A DNA stretch of 64,000 nucleotides, from the NCBI GenBank assembly GCA_905178155.1, contig CAJINV010000004.1, forward strand, positions 2,854,460 to 2,918,459, given 5' to 3'. Every line of letters starts with the position of its first letter. The stretch's first letter is position 1. Positions 157-64,000 of the stretch are shown here, one piece after another. The DNA is from Amoebophrya sp. A120 (Eukaryota > Protista > Dinoflagellata). The notes under the pieces were generated by a model. That model was not told where the DNA came from, searched no databases, and saw nothing but the letters and a program-made list of their open reading frames with translations. Position numbers and translations under genes: made by a program.

Positions 157-1782
157 CTCTTATGTATCGCTTCTGGCCCGTTTCGCGGAGTTTGGGCATT
201 ATCGAATGCAAATACGTCTGGGTCTGGAAAGGTGGAACTTGTGTTGCATGTCCTGCATTTCTGAAAAATCTGTATTGCATAGCCACCAAGCGCGCGACTC
301 TTTTGTGATGCAAGAACGCAGCTTGTCATGCGTGCTACGCATCAGACGGCGCCAACTAAACTTGTCATGCATGGCTGCACTTGAAAACACCAGACTCATC
401 CATGCCTCAGCATCACAAGTTTCCAGACCCAGACATATTTGCAATCCATAGGCATTGGCGCATTACGATGCCCGTTGAGGACGTTCTCGAGGTATCGCAA
501 GACAAAACTTTCTCCGCGGCAAGAACTTGTGACGCACTACTTCGTCCTTGAGACAGTTTTTTGTCATGCTGGTAATGCAAGAGAGGCAGCCTTCCTTGAT
601 GTGTGTTCTCGTGATGCAGCTGTGGTCTACTGATCGCATCAAAGATGAGTCTGCAAAGGTTGGAGATTGAGACACTTTTTTCATCTTGCGATACGATGGC
701 GTCTAGATGCAGTTCCCGCTTGAACTCCCACATTTCTTTCTTTCGCTGCTTCAGCCGTGGTGACCTGCAAATGAATCGAAGATGAAGAAATTATCTCATT
801 ATACAACTTTAAAGATAAAGTACAAAACTGTTGCAGTTGCTCCTTCAGCTTCAAAAGCAAAACTTACCTGTCATCCGGCAGAAAGTCTTTTCGGAATTCG
901 CTCGCGGACGTGCTATGCAACGCAAAAGTGATTCTCTTGTGCTGCAGTTCTGGGATCTTCAAATAATGAAACCAGATCACATATGATCTTGCATATCGTT
1001 TTGCCTCCAAAGAATAAGAAATAGGAGGCATAATTCGTGGTTGTAATGAGTAGAATTCTTCAATATAATGGTTTACGCTTCTCCATGCTCCTCTGTACGA
1101 CTTCAGGCTACTTCGCACGACGTATCTATGTAGCTTTCTAATTTTAGCGCACGAGAACAATTTTTGTCTTCTTTGTTCACCCTGGATACGTGAACTCGGC
1201 TTCATATTTGTTGCCGAAGTCACTCTATCGAAGGCAAAGATATCTGGGTCGTCTGGATAAACAAGCAGGTACCTACTGGATTCGGCATGCAGAGCCTTGC
1301 ATGACAGAGCAACCTTTTGTAGGACATGAACGCAACACCACAAGTTTTTCTGGTCTTCTAGGCGAATTCGACCGTGCGTCGCATGACAAACTGAAACTTC
1401 CAGCAAGATAGACAACATCAAATGTGGCCACTTGCATTCCCGCATGACAGATCTCGCTGCCCTTCAACTTATTTCGCATTACAAGTGTTTTCCAGAGGAC
1501 CGCCCAGACATATTTGCAATGCATACGTCCTTCGTCTGCAGCTCTTCCTGTGGTATTCCTAATGCTATTCTCGCGGCGTCTATCCAGGAAAAAACACCCA
1601 TCGATCCCCATCATCCATTTTTTGCATTCCAAATAATGGACTTTATGCATGTTTTGCATGACAAATTGGACGGGGCTGGGTGTTTTTTCCTGGATAACGT
1701 CGACAGCGGAAGGGCCGTAGTGCTCCTGCAGGTGGTGCAACCGGAGCGTGACCGGGTCCGTGTGCCCCTTGCTTTTCGACAT
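1..1782 (-). CDS. Hypothetical protein, multi-exon, 3' part beyond window start
   Basis: Removing the introners and one GT-AG intron (~767-868) joins an open frame: MSKSKGHTDPVTLRLHHLQEHYGPSAVDAARIALGIPQEELQTK..DFGNKYEAEFTSASEFRKDFLPDDRSPRLKQRKKEMWEFKRELHLDAIENVLNGHRNAPMPKLRETGQKRY. No family recognised. Confidence 0.6.
200..450. mobile_element. Introner, family B (tgtctgggtctgga TIR)
   Basis: TAT..ATA; DR ggcat/ggcat. Confidence 0.85.
493..693. mobile_element. Introner (tatcgcaaga TIR)
   Basis: tatcgcaaga..tcttgcgata; DR cgagg/cgatg. Confidence 0.8.
914..1188. mobile_element. Introner, decayed
   Basis: tatgcaacgcaaaag..cctggata; DR cgtgc/cgtga; frame restored. Confidence 0.65.
1226..1525. 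mobile_element. Introner, family B, decayed DR
   Basis: tatcgaaggcaaagatatctggg..cccagacatatttgcaatgcata; flanks cactc/cgtcc. Confidence 0.7.
1581..1696. mobile_element. Introner, family F
   Basis: Perfect 20-bp TIR tatccaggaaaaaacaccca; DR gcgtc/acgtc. Confidence 0.85.
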
Positions 1783-1971
1783 TTTTTGCGTATTTGTTTT
1801 CTTATTCACAAAAATGAAGGCAACTAGTACTACAACAATCAAAGAAGCCACGCTGCGAAGAGATCATGGTGTAAGAAGTAGTTTTTCATCACCTTGACCG
1901 GCTTGTTCTGATTATATCGACCTTGTTCTTCCCCTAATACTTCTGAAAGGTGTAAAAATTCTTGCCACGAT

Positions 1972-3452: not shown

Positions 3453-4754
3453 CTTGTTCATCATCTTCGAAAACCAAAACTATTTTTAGGCATGAAGCTG
3501 CATAACTCATCATCATCCTCAACAAGAAGGCCACTTTCATATTATCTCCCCATGCTCCTGGGCTAGATCTTTGTCTTTCCCGCCCACGGTCCGACAATGA
3601 AAATCCGAAGCACGACGACGTATTTAACGAGGACCCAACCGAAATTTCGGGACAGAGGACAAAAGAAAGACGGATAGTTGTGGTCCAGCTTCAAGAACAA
3701 CTCGAGGACTGTCCATCAACCCATGAGGCTTTTTTGTTTTATTCATAACAACAGTCTGCAACAAGAACGACTTCTATCAATAATAGTTGACCCACCGAAT
3801 TTTTCAACAAAAGTCATGCACTCAAAAAATTAAGACATATATACGAATCCTTCAATATCTTCGCCTGAAGCCATGATCGCCAGAACAAGACAGCGTGGTC
3901 GAAATTACTGCCCCTTCAAGTGCTTGCAATTACACCTACTTTTTACGTAAACGTTTTTTCTTTTTATCATACGTAGGTTCGCTTTTCGCAGTTCGATAGT
4001 ATCTACGATGTTCTTGCTAGAGCACAAAAAAAAAGCATATCCATATATAGACTCAGATGTACTACAGCCTCGTGATTTGGTGCTCGACGACGTCCTTGTA
4101 GTAGTACCTGTGCGTAGTACTGCCGGTGCAATTTTTATGGCTTGCAAATGTATAAAAAAGTCTGGGCCTGTACAACAGATCTTCTGCTGCTGATGAAAGT
4201 TAATGATGGAGCATCTCGCTGCTCTTGCTCTCGTGTGCAGCCTAGAATGGCAAAGATTTTGCAGCGACGTTGGGCGTACGCGTACCAGCGTAGCGAGGGC
4301 GATCGTTACAAATAAAAACTGCGTTTTTGTATGATAAGAGAGGTACTCGCGCTTGTGATGTTACTCCTGCAATATTACAGACTTGGTTTGTATGCAAGTC
4401 ATCAAGCAATACAGGTTCCACTTTATTTAAGAACTCCAGACCCGAATGACACTACATTTCCATTTGCCACGTTGATAGCATTTATTTTTGTTTTCGTCAC
4501 GTTGTCGTTCCGTGGTCCATGAGGAGCTGCAGTTGATGAATTTCGAGCACCCACCATGCAAGAAAACCCTGTGTAAAGTGAAAGTAAGTCTGTAGGAGCT
4601 AATGCAAAGCATGCATCAACACAGTTACATCCTGGCATGCTGGAGGTGGTCAGCTATGAAGTACATTTTCGCGTAAAAACAGCCGTGCACAAAGGCCTTT
4701 TTCTGTCTTCATGCAGACTGAAGTTGTTCTTACGCTGTCACTGGTCCATGCTCG

Positions 4755-7700
4755 TCATGCGCATGCGCATGACATCACCGTACTTTGTTCACTAAACACA
4801 GTTTTTTCCACCTTGGATACCCACATCCGCAGAAACAAGGCGGGCGCCGCACTCTGCGCAGCGAACCAGCCCACGGGCGGGCCCACGCCCGGCACGGCGA
4901 TCAGCAGAATTAATAGCATATGCATTGCAAAAGTATCGCACCCGTATTGCTCGCGGTTATGCATGTGCATGACAGATCAATCTACTCTCTAATCTGAAAC
5001 AGCATGACAAATGCAAATTTCAGTTTGTTGTTTCCGGAAAATTTGCAAATTATGTAATGTTGAAATTTCCACCAACACGATAGTTTTGCAATTCATATGG
5101 CAGCCCAAAACCGAACAGTTCCGGCTCGTGTGCCGAGCGCGTTTGGTATGAGCGTGCGCGGCTACTTACCGCCCCCACCCCCTTTTATTTTTGAAATAGC
5201 CTAACAGGTGCAATGGATAATGGAATGAACGCCAGGGCCAGCAGCCGAGCAAACATGGACTCTGTGCATGAAAACAAATTCCTGGTGCGCCTGGATCTGA
5301 AATAATTTATTTGCATGACACATGGGAGGGAATGAAGCAGAAGTCCTCGTGCGCTGTTCTCATATGTCGCTCCACCGGCGGTCCAGGAAAGGCGTCGGAG
5401 CTGCAGACGACTTAGTGGAAGAAGAGTAAGCGGCGCCACCGGGAGCATTTTTTTCTGATGTAGAATTACCGCCCCCGCCCCGGTTGAACTTTCCGTAGCG
5501 ATTTTGCACGGAAGCAGTGGCCGCTGTCACGAGAGAAGAGAGGGCGCCCGCGCTCTTGCTGAGGAGGCGCTTGGCAGGTGAGGCAGGTGCCGAGGCTTCT
5601 CCATGCTCGAGATCGAATCCGATTGCACAACCCCCCCTCGAACGTCCCCCTGAATTGTGTGATATGAGCCATAAGTAGCTGAGACACACACTCGTCAAGT
5701 AGAACTGTTGTAGCTTCTGCATCACAAATCCGGGCATGCGCATGGGCTTGGCTTGTTCCGCAGTCATTTGATATCATGCGATCAGTACCAAAAGGCAGCA
5801 AGAATAACTCCGCGAGGACTTGTTCGCCTTCTTCTTGGTACTTCTACTTCGCACGTTGAGAAATAAGGAGAACATCAAGGCGGAGTTGTGTTGAACTCGT
5901 CTCGTAGGCCACCAGAAGCAGCAAGATCTTGAAGACCTTGTTCGGGGCCCCGCTGCCGCGCGTCATCACTCCTCATCATCTTCGACCTCGTATGCAAGCA
6001 GAAAACTGCGAAACAAGGTGTAACCTTGTGTACTAGTTGCATATTACGTGGTGATGTGTAAAACAGTTATAATTACTTCTTCTTGCGAATCTGCATGACA
6101 TGTTGCGTCTTTTTAGACTAGTTCCGTACTTTTTTAAGTACTTTCTGGTGCAGCAACAGGCCGGAATTCTGTACAAATAATAAACGAAATGAAATTTGTA
6201 TAACAAGTATGCAAATGTTGTTCCTGCTCCGATAAAAAAGCTACACTCGTCACAGAAGCTACAGCTACTACAGTTACACTACAATTTGTCTCTTGGATAC
6301 GTCGCCATTACCACCTCCGGTGGTGGCAGCCGTCCAGTTTTTTTGTAGCGAAAGTAGGCGTCGCGCGGCACGAATTCCAGCCGACGGTGCTCTTGGTGGT
6401 AGAACAGCACGCAGTCCGGGTGCTCGCGGAGCCGGGCAATGACCGGGTCCAATACCTCGCGACAGAGCGCGGATACGGCGATGAAGTAGGACACAAACTG
6501 CAGCAGGTTTGGCGTCAGGAAGGGAAGGAAGAAGGTCATATGGAAGCGTCAGGATTGAAATCGTCAAAGTTGAAATAACTTGTAATGCATAAAATCGATA
6601 CCAGTTGGAAGCCCAATTTTCAAGCGGTGCATGACAAATTTCGGCAACGTGTAAATCCAGTTTGTCATGCTGTTTTGGGACAGAAGGCGTCTTTTGTCAT
6701 GCTACTTCAGCAGCTCTACCGCACACCCCAAACAGGCTGACTGTCGGCCTCACTTGCCATCCCGGCAAGAGAGGCACTTCATGCCTTGCAATTTATGCAT
6801 GAGAAATTATTTCAACTTTGACGATTTCAATCCTGACGCTTCCATACGTCACGCAGGCACAGTAAAAGGCGCGCTTCAGCCCCAGTTTGTCGTAGATCAC
6901 AAAAAATTGGAAGACCTGGTACCCGTACCGAAATCGCGCCTGGTGCGAGGAAGCAGAGGAGGAAAATGAGGATGATGGAGCTACTGCAGAAGCTGCTGCA
7001 CCAAGACTATGATCGGAACCGTCACCACCATCGTCAGGCGAAGAGCTACTTGCACTGCCCTCTGCGGTACCGACGCCGGTGATTCGGCTATGCATTGCAA
7101 AAGTATGATCCTCGCGCTCCAGAGCTAGTGTGCGCTTGGGCGTAGCCTGTGCCTGCTTCATCGTCCCAAGTTCTTAAAATCACGCCCAGTTTGTAGTGCT
7201 GGCGAAGGCCGCCCCCGTCGTGGGACACTAGATGTAGATTTTTTGTCATGCTGTATTCACTTCAGGTTCAGTAGTTGCACGAGGTGGACGAGCTCGATAA
7301 ATGTTATACTTTGTTTTGCAGAGGGTAGAGGCCTGTTGCAGCCGTTGGTCCTCCACCGAGCGTTGAGAAAAGGTAGAAACCGATGAGCACGAGGACCCCG
7401 ATCTATCCTGTGCAAAAGTATCGTACTCGTATTGCAGTCATGCATTACAAATTTTTTTCTTAAGCTGCGTCAGCATTACAAATTTTATTTCTAATGCTAA
7501 GGTGGAAATTTGTAATGCATTCATAACGTCGAGTACGATACTTTTGCAATTCATACGATCAGGTTCCGCACAACTCTGTAGGCCATGGCGTCCACAGTGT
7601 TCGAAACCGCTGGGAGGGCCTGTATTTGCTCCACGAACTCATCGACGTTGGAAATGGGCAGGGTCGAGTACTGCTCCAGCTCTGGTCGTGCAATTCCTCC

Positions 7701-9034
7701 ACCAGGAGCAGAAAGGCCGCCCCCGGGAGGTGGTCGTCCGGGTGGTCCTGCCCATGCAGGTCGTCCTTCGTCCCCACGACCTATGCATTGTTTGCAAAAG
7801 TATTGTACTAGTATAAATCGCAATACAAATTGGCTCAGCATTACAAATTAAATTTGTATATGCGGATTTACCCTAGCAAGTAGATTTGTAATGCATAATT
7901 GCGATCAGGATCACTACGAGTACGATACTTTTGCACAGGATACGACCACGAGAGGAGCAGCTACTAGAAGAACTACCTCCGTCCAGCATGAGAGGCCGCT
8001 GAAATTTCGCGTTGCAGCGGTGCAGCAGGTCCTTGAGGGCCAGGAAGAAACAGGTATCCAACTTCTTGAAAAAAAGGTACCGGATCAGAAGCAGGTGCAC
8101 CAGGGGCGCGATGCGCAGAAAGCAGTGCAGAAAAAACCACTCGTACTCCGCACCGATATCGAGCAAGTCGCGCGCAGTCTGGTGAAACCGAAACAGGTAG
8201 AGACACCCGGTGAGCCGCTACGAAAAGAAAAAATGCCCGCGCCGCCCGCGCCTCCGATCCCGAAGATCCCGAAGGGAGCAAATGACTTCGCACAAGAAGA
8301 AGAACTTCTCGAACTCGATGAGTTTTTGATTTTGTATTTCTTTTTTTTACAACATATTGGTGCAACATGCCCATCATGCGCTTGTCTTCAACAATGAAGA
8401 ATTATTTCCTTCACTGGACGCAAGTTCTCGATAAAAAAAAAGGGCGATCTTATATTTAACACACTTTTTTCTCTCGGTGGGTTCATCTGCTGGGGCCGGC
8501 TGCTGGAGGCGGGGCGGGTTTTCGTCAGCACGTTGCGTAGTAACAACAGGGGAGACACGAACACCAAGACCGTCAGTGTGAGAAACCCGAGAATCACAAA
8601 GGCCTGCGCCCGAAAAAATTCCAGCAGCTCCCGGCGGATGGCCCGGGACCGAAGCGAAAAAATCAGTCCGTCGCAGACCGCCTTGCGGCACCCGACGAAG
8701 AAATTTCGGGTGAAGTCGAGCACGTACTCCTCGTCGGTGGGGTATCCACAGAGAATCAGTAAAACTTCCCGCACGCGCTGATGTACAAAAGCGGTCTCTA
8801 CTGCACGACAAAAAAAATGATTTTCCTTCATCCTATTGCTATTCAGCATGACAAGCGTCATGCTTCCAGTTGTCGAAATTTTTGATGTATTTCGTACGTC
8901 GTGTACAGGAAATTTGTATTGCATAGGGGGAAAAAGAAATCTTCCACGACCTTCAGTTCCAGACTGTCGCGCCACTTTTGAGGCAAAAAAGTCCGCTTCC
9001 ACCGACTGTAGTAGGTCGTCCTCCTGCCGCTCAT
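4755..9034 (-). CDS. Multi-pass membrane protein, EI24/CysZ-like; multi-exon, ends uncertain
   Basis: Spliced segments VVEDFFFPTDEEY..IFSLRSRAIRRELLEFFRAQAFVILGFLTLTVLVFVSP, CACVTFFLPFLTPNLLQFVSYFIAVSALCREVLDPVIARL and EPELFGFGLLLILLIAVPGVGPPVGWFAAQSAA resemble the EI24/CysZ helix pattern (..E.LD....R; GFG...LLL.IP.VG). Joining them into one gene is inferred. Confidence 0.45.
4919..5097. mobile_element. Introner, family A (TAT-N5-gcaaaagtatcg)
   Basis: DR tagca/tggca; joins FGFGL|LLIL. Confidence 0.8.
6539..6846. mobile_element. Introner, family C
   Basis: 40-bp TIR tatggaagcgtcaggattgaaatcgtcaaagttgaaataa; DR ggtca/cgtca. Confidence 0.9.
7404..7555. mobile_element. Introner, family A
   Basis: DR cgatc/cgatc. 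Confidence 0.85.
7782..7942. mobile_element. Introner, family A
   Basis: DR cgacc/cgacc. Confidence 0.85.
8743..8925. mobile_element. Introner, family D
   Basis: tatccacag..aaatttgtattgcata; DR tgggg/ggggg. Confidence 0.75.
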
Positions 9035-10293
9035 AGTACCGCTCAAGGAAGACGATGTGGACGGCGCGAGCCTCGGCGTCAAGAATATAAACCGCAGCCT
9101 CATGTTCGATTTCTTGTGCTGGTATCACAACTGTAACTTTAGTTATACGCTTTTAAAGGTTAAAGATGAAGACCAACAGTTTAATATTGCCCATACAACC
9201 AGAAGGAGAAGTCAAGGTGAAGGTCAACAAAGAAATACAGAAATATATTCTACGTCTACAAGGAAAAGGCGGGAGTCGAGGTCGCTTCAACCTTGACTTT
9301 GTTCTTTGTCACGCACAACCACCGGGGTAAACTTCATACATACGAATCGCACCTCTTTGTTCTTCTTGCGCATGTGACTGATAAATTTTGATGGAGGCTG
9401 GCTTCAGATAGATCCTGATACAGGCAGGTGATAGATCTTAAAAGAGATAGATAGATCTTACCGACCTGGTGGCAACCTTTCTTATTGCCAATAAAAGTGT
9501 AAAATTTTTGTGAGATCGTTCGGGGGCGGAAGCCATACTCCCTCCACACTTCCAAGGTGGCGGTCAAAGTGATCATCTTCATCTCAGATGGAGATGGACT
9601 GGAAGCTTGTACCAGAACTCTAGGATTGCAAAAACAACCACACGAGCATATCTATCATTCAACGTGAAGACGTCGAAACCTCCTCGACATGAATGAGAAA
9701 AGACGATGAATCCGAACCACATTGTTTTCACTTCTGATCACGTAAGAAAGACCAGAGGACGACTAGGACCATGAGAAGGGGACCTACATATAAAAAGCGC
9801 GTGGCATCTTATTTGTAGCATGGGGCAAATACGCTTAAAGTTCAACGACCATGTGCTCGTAGTACTTTACTTATGTAGAAGAGCACGAGGTGGAGACGAT
9901 GCTGAAGAACAATTATCCGCGGCCCCTGTTGCATTTTATTTCATGCGGACCACGCCGGAAGTCTGTGGCGTTCGCACGATCGTAATTGTTGCAGAAGCAG
10001 AATGCGCTTGATGAAGATGTTGCTCAGTGTGACTATCGGCCATTAAAATGGGCATATGTAGTTGAGCACAGCGGGTCGCGCAGAGACAAAATGGAGACAG
10101 CACTTGATCTTATTCTTAATGTTTGTTTCCTTGTAGGCATGTGCTCTACTGCAACTGTCTCTACGTGGGCTAGTATGCCATCCGCACATGTCTCTGCTTT
10201 CGGGGCGGACAGCAAACAGAGATTGTGCTGGATAGAAAGATAAGAATTGGCGCCTTGATGTTCTCATGATGTTCTCTACTACAACAGAACAAC

Positions 10294-45400: not shown

Positions 45401-45549
45401 GATGCGGATGAACGCGGGCGGCCCCTGCCCTCTTCTTGTTTGATCCCGTCATGATCTTCTGGTGCGCCGGTAAGGGCCACTCTCTCGTCCTCTGACGGCC
45501 CGTCCTGTTCGTCAACAGCAACAGGACCGTAGTTGGCCGCGGCCATCAT
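39496..45549 (-). CDS. Equilibrative nucleoside transporter (SLC29/ENT) with very long low-complexity N-terminus and loops
   Basis: FLGLETLLPYN (TM1), STGQGLAG, LFLCYVTTFALFPG, IFDVVGR, LRIAFIPLL, FAVTNGYLST after removing introners at 41079, 40490, 40228 and 39699. Confidence 0.85.
39699..39851. mobile_element. Introner, family A
   Basis: DR gtagc/gtagc; joins TNGY|LST. Confidence 0.9.
40228..40436. mobile_element. Introner (tatcMaagaaaaaaac TIR)
   Basis: DR tctga/tctga. Confidence 0.85.
40490..40641. mobile_element. Introner, family A (reverse of 15335/30639)
   Basis: DR agagt/agagt. Confidence 0.9.
41079..41330. mobile_element. Introner, family B (252 bp, reverse of 19060)
   Basis: DR tcttc/tcttc. 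Confidence 0.9.
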
Positions 45550-52800: not shown

Positions 52801-55800
52801 AGTTTGAGCGGGAAGGTGTCCTTCGCGAGGCACACCTCCACCGACTTCGCGCGGTCCAGCTGGTGGAATTCGTCATTCTGCTCGATTACCAGCCACAGCT
52901 CAATCACGCCGATGTCGGACTTGAGAGCCTCGAAGAACCCCGGGGTCGGCGGCAGCAAAGGGGATTGCCACTGCCAGTATCCACAGAAAAAAACCCATCC
53001 ACATCCATTTTTTGCATGGCAAACACATGATTTCATACGTGTTTTGCATGACAAATTGGATGTGGGTTGGTTTTTTTCTGTGCATAGCCAGTCGCCGAAG
53101 TCCAGAGCAGTGTAGCCTGGTTTGCTGGTTGTAGCGGGAGTTGACCCTGATGAAGACCCCGTGGCGGGAGCTTGTCTGAAATTGCTCATGGAGCTCGTAC
53201 TTGACGCCGCTGGAACAACACCAGCAGGACCAGCCGCTTTGCTTGCTGAAGCACTTGGCATGAAACTCAGGGACGCGACCGCGGCCTTCGCGGCCGAATT
53301 CGCGACGGAGCTGTCCATGGACTGCGCCACCACCGGCTGACTGTCCGTCCCGCCGGCCATGCGTGCTTTCGCTGCCGCCACTGGGGATAGGTCGCCGTTT
53401 TGCGGAGGAAGCGCTGAAGAGGGCTTCATCGCACTTGTTGTACCAGTAGATGCGTTTGCTGCAGAAGCTGCGCTAGTAGTTGTAGCTCCTGTGGGACCTC
53501 CTGCTGCTGCAGCCGGTGCGGCAGCAGTAGCTTTGTTCGCAGCAGAAATTGCTCCAGCTGCTGTAGGTGCTGGTGCTCCTGCTGGTGCGCTGCCGTTTTT
53601 ATTACCTGAAGACGAGGAAGCGGACGACCATCCCAACAACAAGGATGCCAACGACATGGGCTTCGGCTCTCCCGAAATCCAGGCGCCACCGCAGGCCGCC
53701 TGCAACTTCGGGTGGTTCGGGAACAAACCGATGCGCAGCACCACGCGCACACTCTGGATGTCCAACACGCTTGTGGACACGCTGGGTTGCAGCGAGCTTT
53801 TGTACCACTGCTCCGCGAGCCGGCGGAACAGATCGGGATTCAACTCGCCCCTGGACAACCCAATCTCGATCCCCACCGTGTTCTCCACCGTTTGCTCTGT
53901 TCGAGACACACGGGAGACCGCACCTCCACCGGATAGACATGAGCCCCGCACCGTGGAAAGTGGCGGGAAAAACACCATGCCGGCACCACCGGCACCACCA
54001 CCAGCTCCAGTGGAAGATGATGACATCGCAAACGCTGTGTCTGCTTGCGCGGCGCTCCTGTAGTCCCCGCTTTTTCTCCTCGGTAGCGAAGAGTCAAGTG
54101 CTGCGCCAGCGCCGTTCAAAGTTATTCCTGGGAGAAGCAGGTCAGCGCTTGCTCCTGCTGGTCCTGCTCCACCACCCCCTCCCCCGCCAGCGCGCATTTG
54201 GTACGACAGCAGGCTGTTGCCTTCAAACGTGGTCCGCCAACGCGGGGCCTTTGCGGTGCAAGCCCGGCGAATCTGGTAGAACAGGCGGACCACGACGCTG
54301 CCAAGTCTCGTCCCGTCACTGGACAACACCGGCACCGGGTTTTCCCACGTGGCGCCCAGCAAAGCCTCGGCCTTCCAACCGCCTTTGGCCTCGGCAACGT
54401 CGTCCAAGAACGCGGCGATTGCCTCCGTCGGAAAGACGCAGCGACCGACGGTAACCGCAGTGCTGCTGCTGGAAGCGGTGTTATCGAGGTACCGCAACGC
54501 GCTACGGGTGTTGTTCACCGTCGTCCCTGCTGCTGTTTTATCAAATGCAAACTACATGATCTCTACGTCTGGAACTACGTGCTAAAGTTTCTTGTCAACT
54601 ACATGCAGGTTTGGCATGGCCCAGATATGGTCTGGAACTACGCGTACGCAGGGCCCCGCATCACAAGTTTTCATGCGACGGATTTGCAGTGCCTGTTGCG
54701 CATGAGAAATCTTCATCTCTCAACAGCGTGGCAGATGAACATGCATTCTGCCATATTACGCATTACAGGTTCACTCGTCTTGTGTGTCCTCTCACAAACA
54801 GCATCACAAGCTACTCGAATCTGTATTCCAGGAGATGTTCTTGACCCAGACATCATGTTTGCAAAAGTTCATATGCACCTGTTGTAGCTGTGCCGTCGGA
54901 AGTGTAATTGCTCCCACCGCGGTTCTCCGGTAAAACACGCACCACATCGAGCAACAGGCCGCAGGAAAGCGTTCCTAGCCGCACTTCCTGGATGAGCAGG
55001 TCCGTCAGACTGTCCCCCGCATTTGAGGCCAAGCAAAACGTGTGCGACGCAGCAAAGTCCAAAGGGTAGAAGCCACCCGCTTGGCTACTCGTGGTTTGCG
55101 CTTGATACGTCGTGCCGTGGCAGGCGTAGCGGAGAAAATACCGTGGCTGTGCGCCGCTTCCTCCGTTTTCGGAAGTGCCGGCAGGGAGCGACATTTATGA
55201 AAGGGCACAAGACCGCAATTGTTTATAGTGGTCCCCCTGCTGCGCCTAGTTCTAACCAGGGGGCACGGCCAGCAAGAACAGAAACAGCTTTCCCTATATT
55301 TATATTTCCATTTCGTTTTCGCTTTCGCAGTTTGCATGACAAACGAGGGCGACGACTCGTGTTCTTGGGTTGTGCGCTTTCATAAAGTCAAATCGGTTCC
55401 CAGAACGCGGATTTCTAGCTCGTGTTCGTCATAATCAGAGGTGATGAGAGGAAGAAGGGAGAGCCGACGGAGAGGGTAAGAATCTTTATAGCCGGTCTGC
55501 TGTTCATCTCCTGTGTCGTCTTTGATAGTTCTCGTCAACGTCGGACTACCAGCAGCAGCGATCCCACCAGCTGCACCTGCACCTCCTGTGTAGCGGAAGT
55601 AGAAGTTTGTCAGCGCCGAAGCGTTTTGCAGCACCTGCAGGCACTCGCTTTCCGTCAAATTGCACTTGTCCAGCAAGTTTTGCAGCAGCTCCTTGCTGTC
55701 CACACTGTCTTGGTCTTGGTCAAGAAGAAACGAGGACACTGCGAGCTTGTTGTCCGCCTGCTGAAACTTGCGCCAGGTTTTTTCTACATCGGTTTGCTGC

Positions 55801-58800
55801 TCGCCAGTGGTTGTAGTTCCTTGCCGCGCAGCTGAGGATCCCGACACGCCGAACGCCGTGGAGCATTTGCTGGTACGACCAGGCCCCCTGGCTGCACCTC
55901 CGGACGGTGACCTAACTTCGTTTTCTAACACAAACAGGTTCATCCCGGAATCGTTCCGATTTGCTGGTTTCTGCAGTGAAGACGAATTGCCTCCAAATCG
56001 CCTTCTCCCAGCACCTCCCGAAGTAGATGTTGCCGCTCGGTTGGCTCGGGCGAAAGTTTCGCAGCTGGCACGGTCCACCGTGCGAGCTGATTCGACGGTT
56101 GCGGACAATGTTGAACTTGCCCCGGGGTAAATCAACGCCAGGAGGTTCTTCAGCTCAAATACGGGAATCCCGTTCTGGTCGCACATGCGCTCTTGGAAAA
56201 CCTTCAACGGGAGGGAGCCCTGATCCTCGAAAACGCTCGGCAAAGCGTTTGTGAACGCATCCAGGTCGAAGGATGTTGCTTGCTCGAAAGCCTGCAGGGT
56301 CAGTGTCCACGTTGGTTTCACCCCGAGGTCCTCCGCGGTAATGTCTGCTGCAGAGGAAGAGCTGCCACTATCTTCCTCCTGCAGAACCGTCGTCACAGCG
56401 CGGCGCAGGTCGCTGAAATCCAGAAACCCCTTACTGCCGCGGTCTAGCGACTTGAACGCACTCCCCAGGCTGATGTCGTTGCGGCGCATGGTTTGCGACA
56501 GTTCGAAAAAGAGCAAAGGAACCAAATGCTGCGCTTTGTTTTTCATCGTGGTAGACGTAGAGCCTCCTGCGGTTTCCTCTTCCGCGCCGGCTTTGCCTGC
56601 ACTCCCGGCCGTACTTGCGTCTGTTTGTAGCTGCTTTTCTACTTTGTTCGTCGCCGAAACAACGCCGACAGAAGTGGAGCTTTTGCTGGACGAACCCGAC
56701 GAGGCAGTTGCAGCTCCGCCCGCCTTTGACGCGCGGCGACTGAAAGTTGTGGTTTTTTCCGAAGCCGTTTTGGGCAACACCCGGTCCACCAGGCCGGGAA
56801 TCTGAGCGAAGTCGAAAACCGACGTTGGCGGCGCGCGGAGGGTGAGAAAGCCGTTGCTCGCCGCAATCACGGTGTCCACAAAGTCGTCAATCAGCTCGTC
56901 GTCTGCCGGCAGACTGGTAGTACTGTTGTTGTCCTTTGCCAACAGAGTCCGCACCTGCGCCGCATCCAGCCTCGCCCCGAAGGTTTCGGGCGGCAGCGAC
57001 GGCGCAAGTTGCTGCAGAATGGTGAAGCCCACACTCAGTGCGTGCTCGAGGTACATGCGCTGCTCGTCGCGAAGCGCGTCGAGGAGTTCCTGAGAGAGAA
57101 TGAATAGTGAAGCAGGTTCTGTCCGAACAAGAAAATTATGATCTTGAATGATAGTTCAGAGTGCACCATCAAAAGAAATTAGGTCGTGTTGCACGAGACT
57201 TGGCCTCGTTCTGGGCAGATCTTCCATAGATTTATCGGGGTATACTTTTCAGAAAGGATACCTTGTACGACACGAGATCCCCTTGGCGGTAGTCGTATCC
57301 TGTGCAAACCTATCGTACTCGTGGAAATGCATGACAAATCTCCTCAGCATTAGAAATGAAATTTGTAATGTGGATTTCGATTTACCAGAAGAAAAAAATT
57401 TGTAATGCATGACTGCAATATACTACGGGTACGATACTTTTGCAGAGCATAAATCGTTCCCCAGCACCCGCAAGTCCTCTTTGGCGAGAAAGACGCGGCC
57501 GACTGTCGCCGTCAAAATCTGACCGATTTGCTCGTCGGTTAGAAATATGCAGCGCAAAAAAATCGTGTTCGTACCAATTGCATGAGTACTTTTTGTTTTT
57601 ATAGCCATGGGCATGACCAATCTGCTTTAGCACAAGGTAAACTCTCAGGACTAACTCCATTTTTCATTGCCCATCAAACAAAGATGTATATGCAATTCAC
57701 TTGATATTGATTATATATACTGGTACGATACAAGAACTCTTGCACATGATAAGAAACCCGCTCTTCTTGGCGTCAGCAGCGAGGAAGCGGTCCACCAGGC
57801 TGCCGGGTTTGTTCTGTGGATTGGATGAACAAGTCGGAGCTATAAAATTAATGTGTCTTGCACTACTACTTGCACTGACACTGAGTGTAAACCAAGTTGC
57901 ACAAAGAACTTAGCCATACGCACTAAGAAGAGAAGCATACTTCTTTGACAATCTGTATCTGAATAGAATCCTATACCTTAGTCGCCCGGAAAACGACTTT
58001 CAAAAGTCGCGCCTTCAAGCTCTGCCGGTATTCTGCGGAGTCCAGAACTGCCGAGAGGAAATCCGACACCAGCACCTTCTCGTTCACCGCCAGTGTGCGC
58101 CACAATTCGGAGCGCGCCGTCTTCGGAAGAAAAGTCGGTGGAATGATGGACAGCCGTTCCTCCAGCTCCAGGCGGGACAAACTTTGCGTCGTCGCAGAGA
58201 GCGCGTTTGGTCTTGGCGCGTTGGGCGGCGCGGTTAGGTGGTTCGCGAGGTCGAAAATGATCCAGGAGTGCTTTAACAGCCACATCCGGACCTTCGGTAG
58301 CGGGGAGTTACTCGATATCACCACCGGGTACTCGTCCGACCATTTTGGCAGTTGCCCGACCGCTTTCAGCAGCTTCTCGAAGTTTTCCGGCGTGGTTGAC
58401 GTTGACGAGGACGAGGCTTGCTTGGTACTGCTGGTACTAGTTCTTGCACCACCATCTTCCGCATTATTATGTCCTGTAGTCGTGATCGCTCCAGCACCAA
58501 GGGCTCCTGCTCCGCCAGCCTGCTGCACACTGACCGCAGCTACATTGCTGACGTTAAGATTCGTGAGGAAGTCGAAGAGCGAATGCAGGTCCTCTTTGCT
58601 GTGCGCACAGCCACCGGACGTGGCGAGCAGGCTTTCGCAGGCGCCAACAAATCCGAACCGATCCAGCCTCGTGCCTTCCAGAGCCTGCGGGGCCAACGCC
58701 GGATATTGACACGAAATAATTCCACCTACACGACGTACAAACTTCTAAGCGGCATCTGCATGAAAGAACTGTTGCTCTGATGTGTCTCTCCGCTTCTATT

Positions 58801-58989
58801 CAGCATGACAAGTAGCTCGTATGCTCTAGAAAAACAGCGAGATTTCAATTTGATGACTTCATGTCGTGTTTTAGTTTATTTGTAAGTGTGCGGAAAATTT
58901 GTATCGGATACCGGCGGGGACGACGCTATTGCAACTGGTGGCGGGACTGCGGGTGGCGGCGGATCTGCGCCGGTCGTGATCGAGCTCAT
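46878..58989 (-). CDS. Very large multi-exon protein with EF-hand-like and C2-like segments
   Basis: Successive minus-strand ORFs join in frame across introners (e.g. SSPP|ALAPQ, DFGDW|QWQS, EKP|MDAL). EF-hand-like AFKSLDRGSKGFLDFSDLRRA and beta-rich C2-like stretches (TRLGSVVVRLFY; LKSDIGVIELW). That it is one gene is inferred; family not identified. Confidence 0.5.
47994..48132. mobile_element. Introner, family D (reverse of 17640)
   Basis: DR ccgct/ccgct. Confidence 0.9.
48370..49326. mobile_element. 805-bp insertion (48446-49250) inside a coding exon, flanked by a 76-bp duplication of exon sequence
   Basis: cgcgacgtcc...ggagacccgtt at 48370-48445 and 49251-49326 (1 mismatch). Both copies encode RVSSIKNAASREREVVEGTLLRTS. 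Confidence 0.8.
48700..48766. repeat. Perfect 25-bp inverted repeat with 17-nt spacer
   Basis: tccaactatggagacaattttggga ... tcccaaaattgtctccatagttgga. A third partial copy lies at 48799-48815. Confidence 0.9.
49788..50080. mobile_element. Introner, family B (left end CAT)
   Basis: DR caaag/gaaag; reverse relative of 20723. Confidence 0.85.
50374..50535. mobile_element. Introner, decayed
   Basis: tatgcaac..tgtagata; flanks tgggt/tcggc; joins EKP|MDAL. Confidence 0.55.
50839..51036. mobile_element. Introner, family A, decayed
   Basis: tatgcaacgcaaaagt..acttttgcaatgcata; flanks ggctg/agccg. Confidence 0.75.
52978..53086. mobile_element. Introner, family F
   Basis: tatccacagaaaaaaacc..ggtttttttctgtgcata; DR gccag/gccag. 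Confidence 0.85.
54539..54873. mobile_element. Introner, B-like, decayed
   Basis: tatcaaatgcaaac..gtttgcaaaagttcata; joins TTG|AAGTT in frame. Confidence 0.6.
57296..57451. mobile_element. Introner, family A
   Basis: DR agtcg/aatcg. Confidence 0.85.
58704..58910. mobile_element. Introner, D-like, decayed
   Basis: DR ccgga/ccggc; joins SSPP|ALAP. Confidence 0.65.
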
Positions 58990-59855
58990 GGTGGCGCGAT
59001 CTGGTAGGTACCGGGGGCGTTATGGTTGTATTTCTGCCTCTGTAGTACGTCTACGTGATCGAAGAAAAGAAGGCACCATCCAAGCGCCGGACCCAGAATG
59101 CCTGTGTCGCTAGGACCTCCGCACGAGCACGAGTGACTTCTTGATCTTTTTGTTTATATGGTTCTCTTCCAAACGGAAATCACCCAGCGGAACAACTATT
59201 TGTATTTCGTACGTATGGCACAAGGGTCAGCGTATTTATGTACTAGAAGTTACGGGACGATGTACAACTGTTGTGAAAAACTACAGTTGACACAGAAAGG
59301 AAAAGGCCACCTATTCAAGTTGCAGGTACAACACTTGGAGTTTGTTGCTGTTGCTTAGAAGCAGAGACTCAGCTTCACCATCGTCTTCCAGTTTGAAGGC
59401 TGACAACATCCCTATGTTGTCCACTCGGCAACATTTTCGCTTGTAGTCTCCGTCTCGTCGCAATTTTTACGAAAAAAACTTCGACTCAAGAAAGAACAAA
59501 AGCCTAGAGCTGGAGGTCCTCCTGCCAGGAGGGGCCGGAAGAAACACGAACTGACATCATGATAGCGCTGATGAAAAATCCCATAGCACTTCATCGGAAA
59601 TTATAGGTGGAGCTCAAGGCTCAAGGGAAGGACGTCGCAAGAACACACGATGAAAAAGTCCTAGGTGAAACGTGTAACAAGTACGAACTTACTACACTAG
59701 AAAAGTTAGCACTGCTGGCGCATTCTGTGTCTTTTATGTATTCATACAGAAATCGCTCTTGTTTCGCCTGGCCCTTTTTGTTGTGCTTGTCAGCGACCTC
59801 GTGGTAAGTAACCAGCAGCAAGGTTCATTGTCTCGCTCCTTCCCGCACGACTTCC

Positions 59856-62800
59856 TCAGACGAAGTTCGTTAATGCATTGCCCTCGTCCACAAATTCCTC
59901 GTCGGCTTGCGTCAACAGCCGAAAATGCTGGTGGTACGCGATGCCGATGGTTTTGATCGGTCCCTCCTCCATCACCGTGAACCGCGCCCCGTTCGCCGTG
60001 AACAGCAACGCCCACGGCTCCGTCACGTTGTGCCGTGTCGCGTCGTGGAACTGCAGCACCACCGTAAACGGGGCGGTCCGGCTGACGTGCCAAAACCCTT
60101 CCACCGCGTGAAGCTCGTAGGACTTCGCGTTATTATTTCTGGCAGAGTATAACGCGTGCTGTTCCTGTGGAGGAGATGGCGCAGCTTGTGCTTGATCTCC
60201 TGATCCGGAAAGGCTTGGAGTTGCAGAAGAACCAGTGGGAATACTAGCTCCGCCTTCCCCTGAAGCGGAAGCTGCAGATGGAAACAAACTCGTTCCCGCC
60301 CACGCTGCCAGGGAGTCCGACTTGTGACCCGGCGGTAGTTATCCATGGGAAATATGTCTGAGTGTCTGGAAGATTGCAACAGTTTTTGTCAACCTTGTCT
60401 GGCAGGACTCTGAGCTAGTTCGTGACGCATAGCCACGAACGAATCGCCTTGGCTGTAGTCTTGCTGCAAAAGCGCAGTCTACACATGGCAGCCCAAACAC
60501 TTGGCGTGCGCGACCACGGATCGCTACTTGCAGTGCACTCATCACAGTCATCATAGTCATTCCCACAGAGTTGCATTTTTACAATTTTCCAGACCGTCAG
60601 ACACTTTCGCAATGGATATTAGATGCGGAAAGTGTCGCAATCCCAGCTCGACCTGTCGCAGGTTTTGCTCGTAGATGTTCTGCATCAGCTGCGCCTCTAT
60701 GCATCGCAAAAGTAATATGAATATCGCACCAATTGTACTGTTGTAAAAATAGAATCACAACTTTGTTTTTCAGAAAGAAAGATCGGTGGATTTTCATCCA
60801 CTTACCAATTTGCTTGGGAGGACGAAAAAGGTGTGCACAAGTATGGTCATGCATGCCTGTTGCCATCGTAAATCACCCAATATTCGACGTACTACGAGGA
60901 CTCCGATACTTTTGCACGCGGGGGATACCTTCCGGAGCGAGAGGGGGGTGGTGCTTCGTCCTCCGGGAAAGGGACGTGGGAGTCCCGTAAGTATAACCCG
61001 CTCCTGTTGAACCACCAGAATCCACACGATAATTTCTCTCCACCTGCTGGGATAGCACCAAGCGAAACCGGTTTCTCTTGCGGAATTGCAGGTACCCGGA
61101 CACCCGCTGGAGACCCTGGCTGCGACCGCCTTCGAACACGTGGGGGATGGACTCGAGGATTATCCACAAAAAAACAACCATCCCCACCCTCCAATTTGTC
61201 ATGCAAAACACGTATGATTGAAGTTCTGTGTTTGTCATGCGTAAAATGGATGGTGGGGTTGTTTTTTCCTGGATAAGCATCCCGAGCGGCAAGGCTGGAA
61301 AGACGTCCATGAAGTGCTGTTGGAAGCGGGCGTTGTCGGCCTGCCACTGCAGGTCGTGCATGCAGAAGACGCCGTAGTTGAGAATGGACCTCTCCAGCAG
61401 CTGCCGCACCACTGGGCGGACGAGCAAGTTGCCGGTGCCAGAGGCTTCGTGTTCGTACTGGTAGAGCGTTTGCGGCTTCAACAGGATGGGCCGTGGGTCG
61501 TGCTTGATGTGGTCGAAAAGGTTTTCGAAAAGATTCTCCATTTTCCTCTGCTCGGAAAGATCAACATTCGACGAAGAAGCACTATTTCTACCCACGCCCG
61601 TCCGCAACGCCCAGTCCGCAAAGTCTCGGTAGACTTTCAGCATCTCATCGCGGCACTCGTGCAGGTCGCGGTGGAACCGCAGCAGGTTCTCTTCCGTATC
61701 CCGCCCGACGTCGCGCAGCCGGCAGGCGTGGCGGGAGGCAAACAGCCGCTCTCGGAGGTAGATATTGATATTGTTGGCATCGTTGTTCATCATGTTCGTG
61801 GAGCTGCTGGAGTGCTGCTTGATGTTCTTCTTGTCCACGATTTGTAGTTTATTTTCCGATTCCGCAAACCACTCTTTCGAAACGAACTGCGGTTTCAGTT
61901 CGACCAACAGCCCCTCCGGGTGCGTCGGAAAAAACGCGGCTTCCGGACGGGCGGCGGAAAGCATGCGGCCCTCGCGGTGGACCCACGGGCGTGTTGACGA
62001 GGAGGGGAATGGTGGTGGGCGAGTTTTTACTCCTGTTGTTCCAACAACTTCATTCTCTTCAGGACCTTGCTGTTCCCACCCTGTTCCCGACAGGTACTCG
62101 TCGAGTTTCGGCTGAAATTCCGCTTCCCAGCGGGTTTTCTGAACTTGGGGCTGCTGGTGCGCGGTTAGAGGTGGTTCTTCTTGCTTTTCGACGTTTTGGT
62201 CGTCATTTTCAGCCGCCGGTGGACACTGCAGCATGTGCGCCGCGTCGTTTTCGCCCCAGTTGTGCGGGAATCCGGAGCCGATGTGCTTCCACTTGGCCGC
62301 GAAGAAAGAGGTCAAGCCTGTGTCCTTAATCGCCTGCATGACGCCGGGAAAATAGAAGTCGTGGAAGATCAGCGTGTGGACGCAGCACGCCAGCTTCGAC
62401 AGCACTGCGTTAATGTCGAATAGCACCGCCGCGTGATCGTGCAGGGCGTCGATGAAGACGACGTCGATTCGGGTCGAGGAGAGCGCTAGCGGCCACGTGG
62501 CCCCCTCCTGATACAGGTCGAAGTTGAGCTTCAACAGATTCGGGTAGTTCGGCACCACCAGTTTGGTCAGCTGCGTCCGCTTCTCGATGCAGATCACCCG
62601 GTGGAAGAGCTTTACACGGATTTATCATTGTACAGGCGGCAGGGACGAGGAACAAAGGTGCTTTCACTGGTGGCGGTTGAGAATTTGATAATATCGATGT
62701 GAATGTACTACCTACGCTACAACTAAATGCAGAAAATACACACAAGTCAGGTCGTCTACCAGGGGGCCCCCAGGGCTCCTTCTCAACTCAATGCGAAAGT

Positions 62801-64000
62801 GAGCAAGTCAGTACCCACATTGCCCTTGTTACCGAAGCTTCTGCGAAAAAAGAAGCAACAATGCTCCTCACACCGCCACGATCGCTGAGCTTTATTAGAT
62901 GAAGGCTCTAGAAGCCAGGTGCGTTCTCCATGACACTGAAGAAGCCGCCGATCTTATCAACGCTATTTTGGATTCGATAATACACGTCGCAATTTTTCCA
63001 TGACGCCTGGCAGGATTTTCATTTGCGTTTCTTACAGTATCCGCGTGGTTTCTCCGCTGGCGCATCCCAATTCCAGAATGGTCTCGTTTTGTCGCCGGCC
63101 GAGAGGTATGCGTTGCAAATAACTATGCCTGGTGGACCTGCTGAAAAAGTCGGAATTGTCTTACTCGTCTGGCACTCCAGGGAAATCGGTACTGCATGAG
63201 TGACTAAGACCCCAGCAGCTTCATTTGTCATGCAAAAACGCAGTTACCATCTGTAAATTGTAGAGCGCATGACCACCACAGAGGGTCCACCGACAAACAT
63301 GTCATGCAGCGTGGCTGCAGTGAGGAGTAGCGCTTCCTTCATGCAAACTGCAACTTCCGCATCACAAATTAGCTCGCTCCAGACGGTCGAGACATATATC
63401 TATTTGCGATGGATAAAACGGAAATGTTTGATCAGGTCGTGGTGGAGCTTGGAGTATCCCGTGCGAAAGCAATGTCGCGCGTGTTGTAATCCTCAGCATC
63501 ACAAATTTTATTTTTCTCAATTTGTCATGTTGACCGAGCTTAAATTTCAACTTGCAATGCCAATGCAGTTACGACTAGCGCAGACTTGTTCTACTTTTGC
63601 AATTCGTATGGACGTGGTCAACGTTTGATTCGCCTGCCGGTCGGAAAACGTGCTGTACGTTTCAAACCGAGCGGAGCCGTCCCCGTCTTCCGCGTCACCA
63701 GCAGGAAGAGTGCTTTTCTCTGGAAGATGTTGAGCAAACACGCCGGCATAGCGGAACTCCGGGAACTGCGGTCCAAAGAGTTCTGTTTCGTTCTGCAGGA
63801 ATTGCGCTGCGTGCACAATCCGCTCGTCTGCTTCATCGGGTGGACGAGGTGACGCAGGCATATGCATACCTTCGTCGTCGAACACGGCCGCGTGTTGCCG
63901 CGGTTCGGTCCTGTGCCCGTTCGTCGCCTTAACAACCCGCTCTCGAACCGAGTCACTTCCCACTGCCCGCGGTCTGCGAAACGGGTAGCGCCCGATCGAC
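59856..64000 (-). CDS. Class I SAM-dependent methyltransferase (Methyltransf_24-like), 5' end probably beyond the window
   Basis: LTTSKLHHDLIKHF, motif I NETILELGCASGETTRIL (~63035-63090), LFHRVICIE, IDVVFIDALHDHAAVLFDI..LIFHDF. The C-terminal exons join in frame across the elements at 60698 and 60340. Confidence 0.75.
60340..60618. mobile_element. Introner, B-like
   Basis: tatccatgggaaa..tgtctg / cagacactttcgcaatggata; flanks gtagt/ttaga; frame restored. Confidence 0.7.
60698..60927. mobile_element. Introner, family A, decayed
   Basis: tatgcatcgcaaaagta..tacttttgcacgcgggggata; flanks gcctc/ccttc. Confidence 0.7.
61161..61275. mobile_element. Introner, family F (reverse of 1581/52978)
   Basis: DR aggat/agcat. 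Confidence 0.85.
63107..63415. mobile_element. Introner, B-like, decayed
   Basis: tatgcgttgcaaata..tatttgcgatggata; joins KHFR|LGRRQNETILELG. Confidence 0.7.
63455..63608. mobile_element. Introner, family A (right end GTA)
   Basis: DR tggag/tggac; joins LTTS|KLHH. Confidence 0.75.

What the first reader, a model, noticed from the sequence alone, without database searches (positions are those of the whole stretch)
200..63608. Dense system of TIR-bounded, non-GT-AG introns (introners): ~59 copies from about ten families with one architecture
Seen: about 59 elements of 109-477 bp interrupt conserved reading frames. They share the layout [5-bp DR]-TAT...TIR...ATA-[5-bp DR], although their internal sequences are unrelated between families. 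At the junctions I translated, deleting element plus one DR restores the frame (e.g. VYH|RHLD, NTKI|FIGDQ, TNGY|LST, PEKY|WSEL). Most have no GT/AG at the junction. Known: IR/DR-bounded non-canonical introners with TAT starts are reported for Amoebophrya (Farhat et al. 2021), and MITE-derived introners are known from Micromonas and Aureococcus. Inference: essential genes (symplekin, Ssf1, CFAP45) depend on a splicing route that reads element ends or a terminal hairpin rather than GT-AG. To my knowledge its mechanism and mobilising enzyme are unresolved.
Basis: partly seen in the sequence, partly recalled or inferred. Interest (0 to 1): 0.85.

Follow-up and report, generated by a model that had tools for sequence, protein, structure and literature searches.

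The report
Transposon introns with fixed-offset splice code
Dozens of small jumping-DNA inserts in this marine parasite's genes, a kind already described for this strain, are missing precisely from likely transcript assemblies although they lack normal intron ends; only one cut position fits them all (one base before and four bases after the insert), and a remodelled spliceosome likely reads it.

Summary
The window encodes Amoebophrya sp. A120 proteins, and these are the TAT-type introners of Farhat et al. 2021. I count 68 elements (109-477 bp, 25% of the window) with TAT...ATA ends and a 5-bp target duplication. Contigs of probable RNA runs (one sample) skip element+5 nt at 12 of 12 element joints listed; DNA contigs keep the elements. 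What may be new: mutated duplications fix the cut. One register alone fits 12/12 RNA joints and 38/38 junctions in annotated proteins: intron = N-TAT...ATA-NNNN. Farhat called the position variable or unknown (figures not seen). In this register 1 of 68 is GT-AG, +1 and -2 are unbiased, +2/+3 are always TA, and 5 of 12 RNA-confirmed elements have almost no predicted end-to-end stem. Likeliest: a U1-less, remodelled spliceosome using the element's TA as its GU-A register and counting to the 3' cut (0.55). Main rival: separate Euglena-like machinery (0.33). No transposase found. The scan noted two look-alike introns in other dinoflagellate DNA (unchecked).

The parts
1..1696 (-). Unnamed gene cut by the window start; elements 200-450, 493-693, 914-1188, 1226-1525, 1581-1696, and one partial element whose end lies at 156
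   Evidence: pattern and restored frame; partial element matches whole copies in loci; no RNA or protein test
4500..9103 (-). Gene of P0005 (641 aa, no Pfam family): all 11 introns are elements: 4555-4819, 4919-5097, 5147-5364, 5616-5906, 5991-6299 (the only GT-AG one), 6539-6846, 7089-7327, 7404-7555, 7782-7942, 8219-8539, 8743-8925
   Evidence: annotated protein matched across all junctions; 648-codon open frame across 11 elements
10852..11183 (-). Element in a Brix-domain gene (10297-12882; 'Ssf1' by recall)
   Evidence: pattern, frame; Brix domain
14257..22097 (-). Symplekin gene (P0001, 1194 aa): 16 elements 14554-14842, 15018-15276, 15335-15479, 15542-15708, 16001-16219, 16295-16671, 16724-17034, 17209-17376, 17640-17790, 18091-18334, 18385-18666, 18766-18920, 19060-19536, 20091-20264, 20723-20984, 21214-21442; one GT-AG intron 20366-20635
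   Evidence: 100% match to P0001 after removal; Pfam PF12295, PF11935; orthologues P0002, P0003
23572..27460 (-). Gene with 9 elements: 23711-23873, 23932-24281, 24323-24628, 24712-24897, 25071-25295, 25350-25499, 25538-25840, 25997-26310, 26445-26707
   Evidence: X4 contig of 1734 nt spans 4039 genomic bases; 2305 missing = 2260 + 9x5; DNA run X5 contigs run through three of them
29901..33384 (-). Elements in a TPH-domain gene ('CFAP45' by recall): 29901-30143, 30639-30783, 31288-31516, 31627-32000, 32064-32357, 33140-33384
   Evidence: pattern and frame; TPH domain in 4 of 5 exon pieces; no RNA joint seen
39699..41330 (-). Elements 39699-39851, 40228-40436, 40490-40641, 41079-41330 in a long unnamed gene
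   Evidence: pattern, perfect repeats, restored 1678-codon frame across three of them
46881..58989 (-). Gene of P0004 (2852 aa): 11 elements 47994-48132, 49788-50080, 50374-50535, 50839-51036, 51753-51893, 52978-53086, 54539-54873, 55196-55384, 57296-57451, 57546-57751, 58704-58910; GT-AG introns 51510-51656, 57090-57261, 57814-57976
   Evidence: RNA joints for 9 elements and 3 canonical introns, most on one 9502-nt contig; protein match
60340..63608 (-). Elements 60340-60618, 60698-60927, 61161-61275 (RNA joints) and 63107-63415, 63455-63608 (pattern and frame)
50834..51041 (-). Worked example of the register: element 50839-51036 with a 3/5 repeat; the RNA joint allows 2-4 upstream repeat bases kept, neighbours 55196 and 57296 allow only 4-5; supported intron 50835-51037

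Best explanation
These are short non-coding inverted-repeat elements with 5-bp target duplications that are absent, together with exactly 5 bases, from probable transcript contigs, always in a way that fits a cut one base before TAT and four bases after ATA, and they are likely removed by a remodelled spliceosome. Steps. (1) Shown: architecture, copies in both orientations, presence in DNA. (2) Inferred: a DDE transposase encoded elsewhere inserted them and made the duplication. (3) Shown: net-zero removal, so the original codons return; retention would break 37 of 38 tested frames. (4) Shown within the limits of 19 informative junctions: one register, intron = N-TAT...ATA-NNNN. (5) Inferred: that register puts the element's T and A at +2/+3, where canonical introns have U and A, so the catalytic core would dock the 5' end as usual while ignoring +1; the 3' cut would be set by counting from the terminal ATA (candidate branch A at -7 or -5) rather than by AG. 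Because both ends carry the same motif, an element works in either orientation and at any target. End pairing may help bring the ends together but a stable stem is predicted to be dispensable.
For: Register: only 4 retained upstream bases fit 12/12 RNA joints and 38/38 protein junctions; 8 junctions exclude <=3 and 5 exclude 5; a shared register arose in 0.4% (RNA only) and 0 of 200,000 (RNA+protein) simulations with free registers. Orthologues favour the same reading at 20091. +2 T and +3 A are invariant in all 50 supported elements, and TAT/ATA deviates at 8/300 positions against 39/250 repeat mismatches. The 4 supported canonical introns also begin GTA. The same geometry (5-nt duplication NNAGG, its last G plus the element's first base as donor) is described for spliceosomal class-12 introners of Polarella (bioRxiv 2020.10.14.339549, passages). 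U1 was not detected in A120 or A25 although nearly all spliceosomal proteins were (PMC7789003), whereas a GT-AG Amoebophrya has U1 (PMC12005148). The nine commonest A120 non-canonical end classes in Farhat Table S4 all have T second, as do the TT-starting A25 classes. Fixed branch-to-3' distances exist in other spliceosomes (PMC2483917).
Against: No trace of the usual spliceosomal docking bases: +1 is A/C/G/T 18/18/18/14 and AG at -2/-1 occurs in 6 of 68; in 178 oriented elements from fetched loci G at +1 is 51 and AG 11 against 9 for the mirror control. Mutations at +1 do not trend to G (2 of 8 towards, 1 away). No branch consensus is visible and the two ends are nearly symmetric; a 3' U-tract bias in the window (18 v 5) vanished in the loci (19 v 19). 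T at +2 would coincide by chance in about 1 of 6 registers. No lariat, inhibitor or snRNA evidence was obtained. The RNA runs are one sample and only guessed to be RNA; protein junctions come from the published gene models.
Confidence: 0.55

Rival explanations
1. A second, non-spliceosomal machinery reads the paired terminal triplet TAT/ATA and cuts at fixed spacers (1 and 4 nt), as proposed for Euglena nonconventional introns; canonical introns use the ordinary spliceosome in parallel.
For: Euglena code N3-CDG...CH'G-N5-6 has the same design, a complementary triplet with fixed, longer 3' spacer (PMC12501133, passages). The triplet is Watson-Crick paired in 65-67 of 68 elements per position. 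Total indifference to +1 and -2 and end symmetry need no special pleading.
Against: No excess of G.U over A.C pairs on the transcribed strand (73 v 62 in the window, 119 v 105 in loci). 5 of 12 RNA-confirmed elements have predicted end pairing below 0.2. It leaves the +2/+3 match to canonical GTA, the Polarella class-12 geometry and the reported U1 loss as coincidences.
Confidence: 0.33
2. The terminal hairpin alone juxtaposes the exons and the cut slides freely within the direct repeat (the variable-site reading of Farhat et al., Fig. 3 legend).
For: 48 of 68 elements are predicted to pair their ends with probability above 0.5; own ends pair better than ends of other elements (-14.6 v -7.7 kcal/mol). 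22 of 41 supported junctions cannot show the register.
Against: 19 informative junctions share one register. A two-register mixture is less firmly excluded: simulated chance 0.06 for registers 4/5 and 0.008 for 3/4. Contigs drop minor forms, so rare slippage is not excluded.
Confidence: 0.06
3. The elements are self-splicing RNAs.
For: Several interiors form strong predicted folds.
Against: No Rfam family at gathering score anywhere in the window; 109-bp members and unrelated interiors share only about 14 terminal bases.
Confidence: 0.03
4. No unusual RNA splicing: the genes are pseudogenes, or the elements are excised from DNA, or canonical sites elsewhere are used.
For: The spliced contigs are only guessed to be RNA; the DNA run's joint table was swamped by repeats (2094 rows hidden), so rare DNA excision is not excluded.
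Against: X5 contigs run through elements at depth 24-31 with no mismatch, including 23711-24281 that X4 skips. The same contigs that skip elements also skip GT-AG introns. Listed joints lie at element ends, none at distant GT-AG sites.
Confidence: 0.02

Closest known systems
Introner elements of Amoebophrya sp. A120 (Farhat et al. 2021, PMC7789003; also 58 A120 families in Gozashti et al. 2025, PMC12130899)
   Same: Same strain by protein identity; inverted repeat starting TAT, about 7 variable bases, then an A-run; short direct repeat; RNA-supported non-canonical junctions; no internal transposase.
   Different: Farhat gave repeats of 3-5 nt and called the splice position relative to the hairpin variable or unknown; the 40 of 58 Gozashti rows I saw give mixed mechanism calls and TSD lengths 2-6. 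Here the duplication is 5 bp and one register fits. Farhat's Figs 3 and S19-S23 were not visible and may show this offset as the mode.
Euglena nonconventional introns (PMC12501133; review PMC11282704)
   Same: Non-GT-AG, transposon-like, complementary terminal triplet at fixed spacers from both cuts, longer spacer on the 3' side, coexisting with canonical introns.
   Different: Triplet CDG/CH'G with spacers 3 and 5-6 and a purine opening the next exon, against TAT/ATA with spacers 1 and 4 and no purine rule (36 of 68); unrelated lineage.
Polarella glacialis class-12 introner-like elements (bioRxiv 2020.10.14.339549)
   Same: Dinoflagellate, 5-nt duplication, donor made of the duplication's last base plus the element's first base, acceptor taken from the duplication.
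   Different: They need G at +1 and AG from the target (NNAGG); the A120 elements need neither.
Fritillaria borealis non-canonical introns (PMC13326754, PMC11282704)
   Same: MITE-derived mass intron gain with non-GT-AG ends, attributed to an altered U2 spliceosome.
   Different: Preferred ends (AG-AC, AG-AT) and an intact U1; here the ends are free and U1 is reported undetected.
Aureococcus and Micromonas MITE introners (recalled; summarised in PMC9860276)
   Same: TIR plus target duplication, perfect removal.
   Different: They carry or co-opt canonical splice sites.

Membership tests
Amoebophrya A120 introner elements | Located in A120 genes | tested here: met
   P0001, P0004, P0005 named A120, 99-100% identity
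Amoebophrya A120 introner elements | Inverted repeat starting TAT, about 7 variable bases, then at least AAA | tested here: met
   position tables
Amoebophrya A120 introner elements | Direct repeat of 3-5 nt at the junction | tested here: met
   5 bp; perfect in 35 of 68
Amoebophrya A120 introner elements | Transcript-supported non-canonical junction | tested here: met
   12 of 12 listed element joints non-GT-AG in contigs of probable RNA runs, one sample
Amoebophrya A120 introner elements | Repeated, non-coding | tested here: met
   35 of 68 in 7 clusters; longest stop-free stretch 111 aa; 45 of 68 hit fetched loci
MITE / non-autonomous TIR DNA transposon | TIR, constant-length TSD, both orientations | tested here: met
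   6 of 7 clusters occur in both orientations relative to the gene
MITE / non-autonomous TIR DNA transposon | Cognate autonomous element with transposase | tested here: inconclusive
   no genome held; longest of 373 elements in 564 kb of loci 1104 bp; no transposase family among 22 frames
Ginger DNA transposons | Integrase-type transposase and Ginger termini (TGT...ACA, recalled) | tested here: not met
   termini are TAT...ATA (one TGT...ATA); no integrase hit in an 815-bp copy; Gozashti text also says family 38 lacks Ginger homology and termini although its table labels it Ginger
U2-type spliceosomal intron | GT-AG ends | tested here: not met
   1 of 68; 5 of 178 in loci
U2-type spliceosomal intron | U at +2 | tested here: met
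   50 of 50 supported elements in the fitted register
U2-type spliceosomal intron | Branch point and lariat, snRNP dependence | not testable with these tools
   no raw reads of this strain; contigs cannot show lariats
Euglena-type nonconventional intron | N3-CDG...CH'G-N5-6 then purine | tested here: not met
   motif and spacers differ
Euglena-type nonconventional intron | Complementary terminal triplet at fixed spacers (works like) | tested here: met
   TAT/ATA paired in 65-67 of 68; spacers 1 and 4
Euglena-type nonconventional intron | Excised as full-length circle without lariat | not testable with these tools
   needs raw reads or bench work

The most novel reading that the evidence does not exclude
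Amoebophrya A120 runs a splicing code, N-TAT...ATA-NNNN, that is wholly encoded by transposon ends and is executed by a machinery other than the spliceosome, evolved independently of the Euglena one; any DNA between two such ends would be removed without a scar at any target and in either orientation.
Probability: 0.3. Interest if true: 0.85.

Novelty: already known. Interest (0 to 1): 0.47.

Why it matters
The elements are published, but how most introns of this parasite are spliced is open. A fixed register turns an apparently random set of splice ends into one rule, gives exact predictions for lariat or circle junction searches (5' end one base before TAT; candidate branch A at -7 or -5), allows correct gene models, and explains why the invasion is tolerated: the element supplies every required base, so any insertion in either orientation is removed cleanly. 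Whichever machine does it, a spliceosome blind to G+1 and AG or a second nuclear splicing system, would be a real departure from the textbook.

Tried and rejected
No whole genome was held, so no genome-wide transposase search. Hypothesis that the intron is N-TAT...ATA-N and leaves one extra codon: rejected, 0 of 16 symplekin junctions fit and RNA lengths equal element+5. Drift of intronic repeat copies towards GT or AG: not seen at +1; G at -1 is mildly raised (28/68, p=0.024, mirror 26/68; loci 67/178 v mirror 43/178) but may reflect phase bias (18:7:13, p=0.09); inconclusive. RNA-level selection on the stem (G.U over A.C): one of four window widths gave p=0.04, not repeated in loci. 3' U-tract asymmetry: not repeated in loci. 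Branch consensus at a fixed place in canonical introns: A at -7 in 2 of 4, uninformative. No listed holder is on record as RNA. Including DNA run X5 in the first lay hid all true joints. Long copies in loci (815 and 1104 bp) and the 805-bp insert gave no transposase family. Rfam: nothing. Whether the JACKZZ01 contigs are this strain or a relative is undetermined: no exon overlap among the top 25 hits shown. Roy et al. 2023 Curr Biol was not held; only its preprint was seen.
Full report
OBSERVATION. A scan for direct repeats flanking inverted repeats, with no terminal motif assumed, found 31 TAT-starting pairs with a 5-bp repeat at >=10/16 matches, against 0-1 in each of 20 dinucleotide shuffles; other starts were 62 against 19-47. 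TAT dominated only at repeat length 5. Profile scans, then correction by RNA and protein evidence, gave 68 elements of 109-477 bp covering 24.7% of the window, with repeat matches of 5/5 in 35, 4/5 in 19, 3/5 in 9 and 2/5 in 5. Five first pairings were dropped or re-paired. BLAST grouped 35 copies in 7 clusters and left 33 singletons; 6 of 7 clusters occur in both orientations relative to the gene; the longest stop-free stretch is 111 codons.

IDENTITY. Three exon queries each returned an Amoebophrya sp. A120 protein at 99-100% identity. The window is therefore from the strain whose introners Farhat et al. described (PMC7789003: abstract, passages, sections 11 and 16 whole, supplement passages and part 3 of 5; figures not seen). 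P0001 is symplekin by Pfam. The three annotated genes hold 43 introns: 38 elements, 4 GT-AG introns and one odd 881-nt intron.

REMOVAL FROM RNA, NOT DNA. No listed run is on record as RNA; X1-X4 are guessed RNA and one sample. In 23283-27321 an X4 contig of 1734 nt spans 4039 bases; the 2305 missing equal nine elements plus 9x5. Contigs of X5 (kind not on record, behaving as DNA, possibly the window's own source) run unbroken through elements at depth 24-31, including ones X4 skips. In 49700-61400, 15 of 16 joints were shown: 12 skip an element plus 5 bases and 3 skip GT-AG introns, most on one 9502-nt contig. Annotated proteins match the net-zero removal at 38 of 38 element junctions; retention would break the frame at 37 of 38. 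A model leaving one extra codon fits 0 of 16.

THE REGISTER. Write the sense strand as U1-5, TAT...ATA, D1-5 and let k be the number of U bases kept. Where the two repeat copies differ, the transcript limits k. Among 41 elements with junction-level evidence 19 are informative: 8 exclude k<=3 (3 by RNA, 5 by protein) and 5 exclude k=5 (4 by RNA, 1 by protein). Only k=4 fits 12/12 RNA joints and 38/38 protein junctions. With registers drawn freely from 0-5, a shared one arose in 0.4% of simulations (RNA only) and 0 of 200,000 (both); for a 4/5 mixture the figure is 0.06 and for 3/4 0.008, so slight wobble is less firmly excluded, and contigs hide minor forms. Protein evidence depends on the published models; orthologues agree at 20091. 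The intron is thus N-TAT...ATA-NNNN. Farhat's Fig. [quoted passage not shown] S23 may point at this offset; I could not see those figures. In Gozashti et al. 2025 (PMC12130899: passages; supplement rows for 40 of 58 A120 families; files 13-14 not searched) the mechanism calls are mixed. Searches listed no paper stating this register; subscription papers are not covered.

WHAT IS READ. In this register 1 of 68 introns is GT-AG; +1 is 18/18/18/14 for A/C/G/T and AG ends 6 of 68. A metagenome scan gave 119 loci, 73 of the first 80 from contigs JACKZZ01; they hold the same families (45 of 68 window elements hit at 70-95%) and 373 elements, 296 with perfect 5-bp repeats. For 178 of 373 oriented by codon score (53 of 53 correct on the window, on which it was trained), G at +1 was 51, AG 11 against 9 for the mirror, GT-AG 5. 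G at -1 is mildly raised in both sets but may be a phase effect. In contrast the terminal triplets resist decay: 8 deviations in 300 positions against 39 of 250 repeat mismatches in the 50 supported elements, with +2 T and +3 A invariant and A-7 kept in 49 of 50. In old elements pairing of positions 11-14 falls to about 0.5 while positions 1-3 stay above 0.9. End pairing is predicted above 0.5 for 48 of 68, but below 0.2 for 5 of the 12 RNA-confirmed ones, and there is no consistent G.U excess on the transcribed strand. So the short terminal motif at fixed spacers matters more than a long stem. This is inference from conservation and folding, not a test.

MECHANISM. I favour a remodelled spliceosome (0.55). 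The register places T and A at +2/+3, as in the four supported canonical introns, which all begin GTA. It is the geometry of Polarella class-12 elements, which still need G and AG from an NNAGG target (bioRxiv 2020.10.14.339549, passages); A120 would be that arrangement with the target requirements lost. U1 is reported undetected in the two strains with such introns and present in a GT-AG strain (PMC12005148 passages), so the spliceosome itself seems changed in these lineages. Spliceosomes that fix the branch-to-3' distance exist (PMC2483917 passages), and tunicate non-canonical introns are attributed to an altered U2 spliceosome (PMC13326754 passages). Against: from established structural knowledge (recalled), G+1, G-1 and A-2 dock the 3' site, and +1 and -2 are free here; no branch consensus is seen. 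The rival (0.33) is a separate machinery like that proposed for Euglena, whose genetically tested code is also a complementary triplet at fixed spacers (PMC12501133 passages; review PMC11282704 passages); diplonemids show related end-pairing introns (PMC12621601 passages). Also seen: PMC9860276 and PMC11453091 passages.

MOBILISATION. TIRs, a constant 5-bp duplication and both orientations indicate a DNA transposon origin (inferred). No autonomous copy was found: no genome, longest locus copy 1104 bp, no transposase family in 22 frames from three long inserts. An 815-bp copy in L038 has the size of Gozashti's family 38 (808-810 bp, tabled as Ginger, 5-bp TSD, TA/TA termini); I did not compare their sequences.

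VERDICT. Real, already known as a system, with one possibly unreported and directly testable addition, the fixed cut rule. Two earlier scan notes describe similar single introns in other dinoflagellate DNA; they are unchecked and did not shape the reading. Supplement figures of Farhat et al. and the unseen part of the Gozashti supplements bear on how new the register is.

Noticed in passing
window:48370-49326: An 805-bp insert (48446-49250) sits between two copies of a 76-bp coding stretch (99% alike). P0004 holds one copy, implying an 881-nt intron with no GT-AG or GC-AG register; one register gives a G-TAC 5' end but no matching 3' motif. It has internal hairpins and a fragment of an introner family. 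No RNA joint was tested there.
   Followed up: partly
window:16724-16808, 20898-20948, 32299-32349: Raw RNA run X8 (same species label, no exon cover at 90%) has reads only on element ends, continuing into other sequence: a related strain seems to share these families and to transcribe at least one copy unspliced.
   Followed up: no
window:27880-29050: Transcribed in X4 contigs but without a clear protein frame; a stretch of about 60 bases occurs twice (near 28160-28230 and 28920-28980); no Rfam match.
   Followed up: no
window:33758-33858; ends at 4136, 4477, 13379, 62690, 62979: A 101-bp TAT...ATA element with a poor repeat inside a probable canonical intron, and several unpaired terminal motifs; not counted among the 68.
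   Followed up: no
window:7782-7942: A perfect-repeat element that can be read as GT-AG in another register; aligners would call such introns canonical, which may explain part of the 15% of A120 'canonical' introns reported with repeats.
   Followed up: partly
window:5986-6300: The one GT-AG element: its AG arises from a difference in the intronic repeat copy, a possible conversion of an introner into a canonical-looking intron.
   Followed up: partly
L038:2296-3110; L003:505-1608: Long members (815 and 1104 bp) with perfect 5-bp duplications; L038 also carries an introner-split topoisomerase II-like gene (recognised by recall). No Pfam transposase hit.
   Followed up: partly
window:1-64000: Every gene found reads on the minus strand, and exons between neighbouring elements are often only about 30-60 bases.
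   Followed up: no
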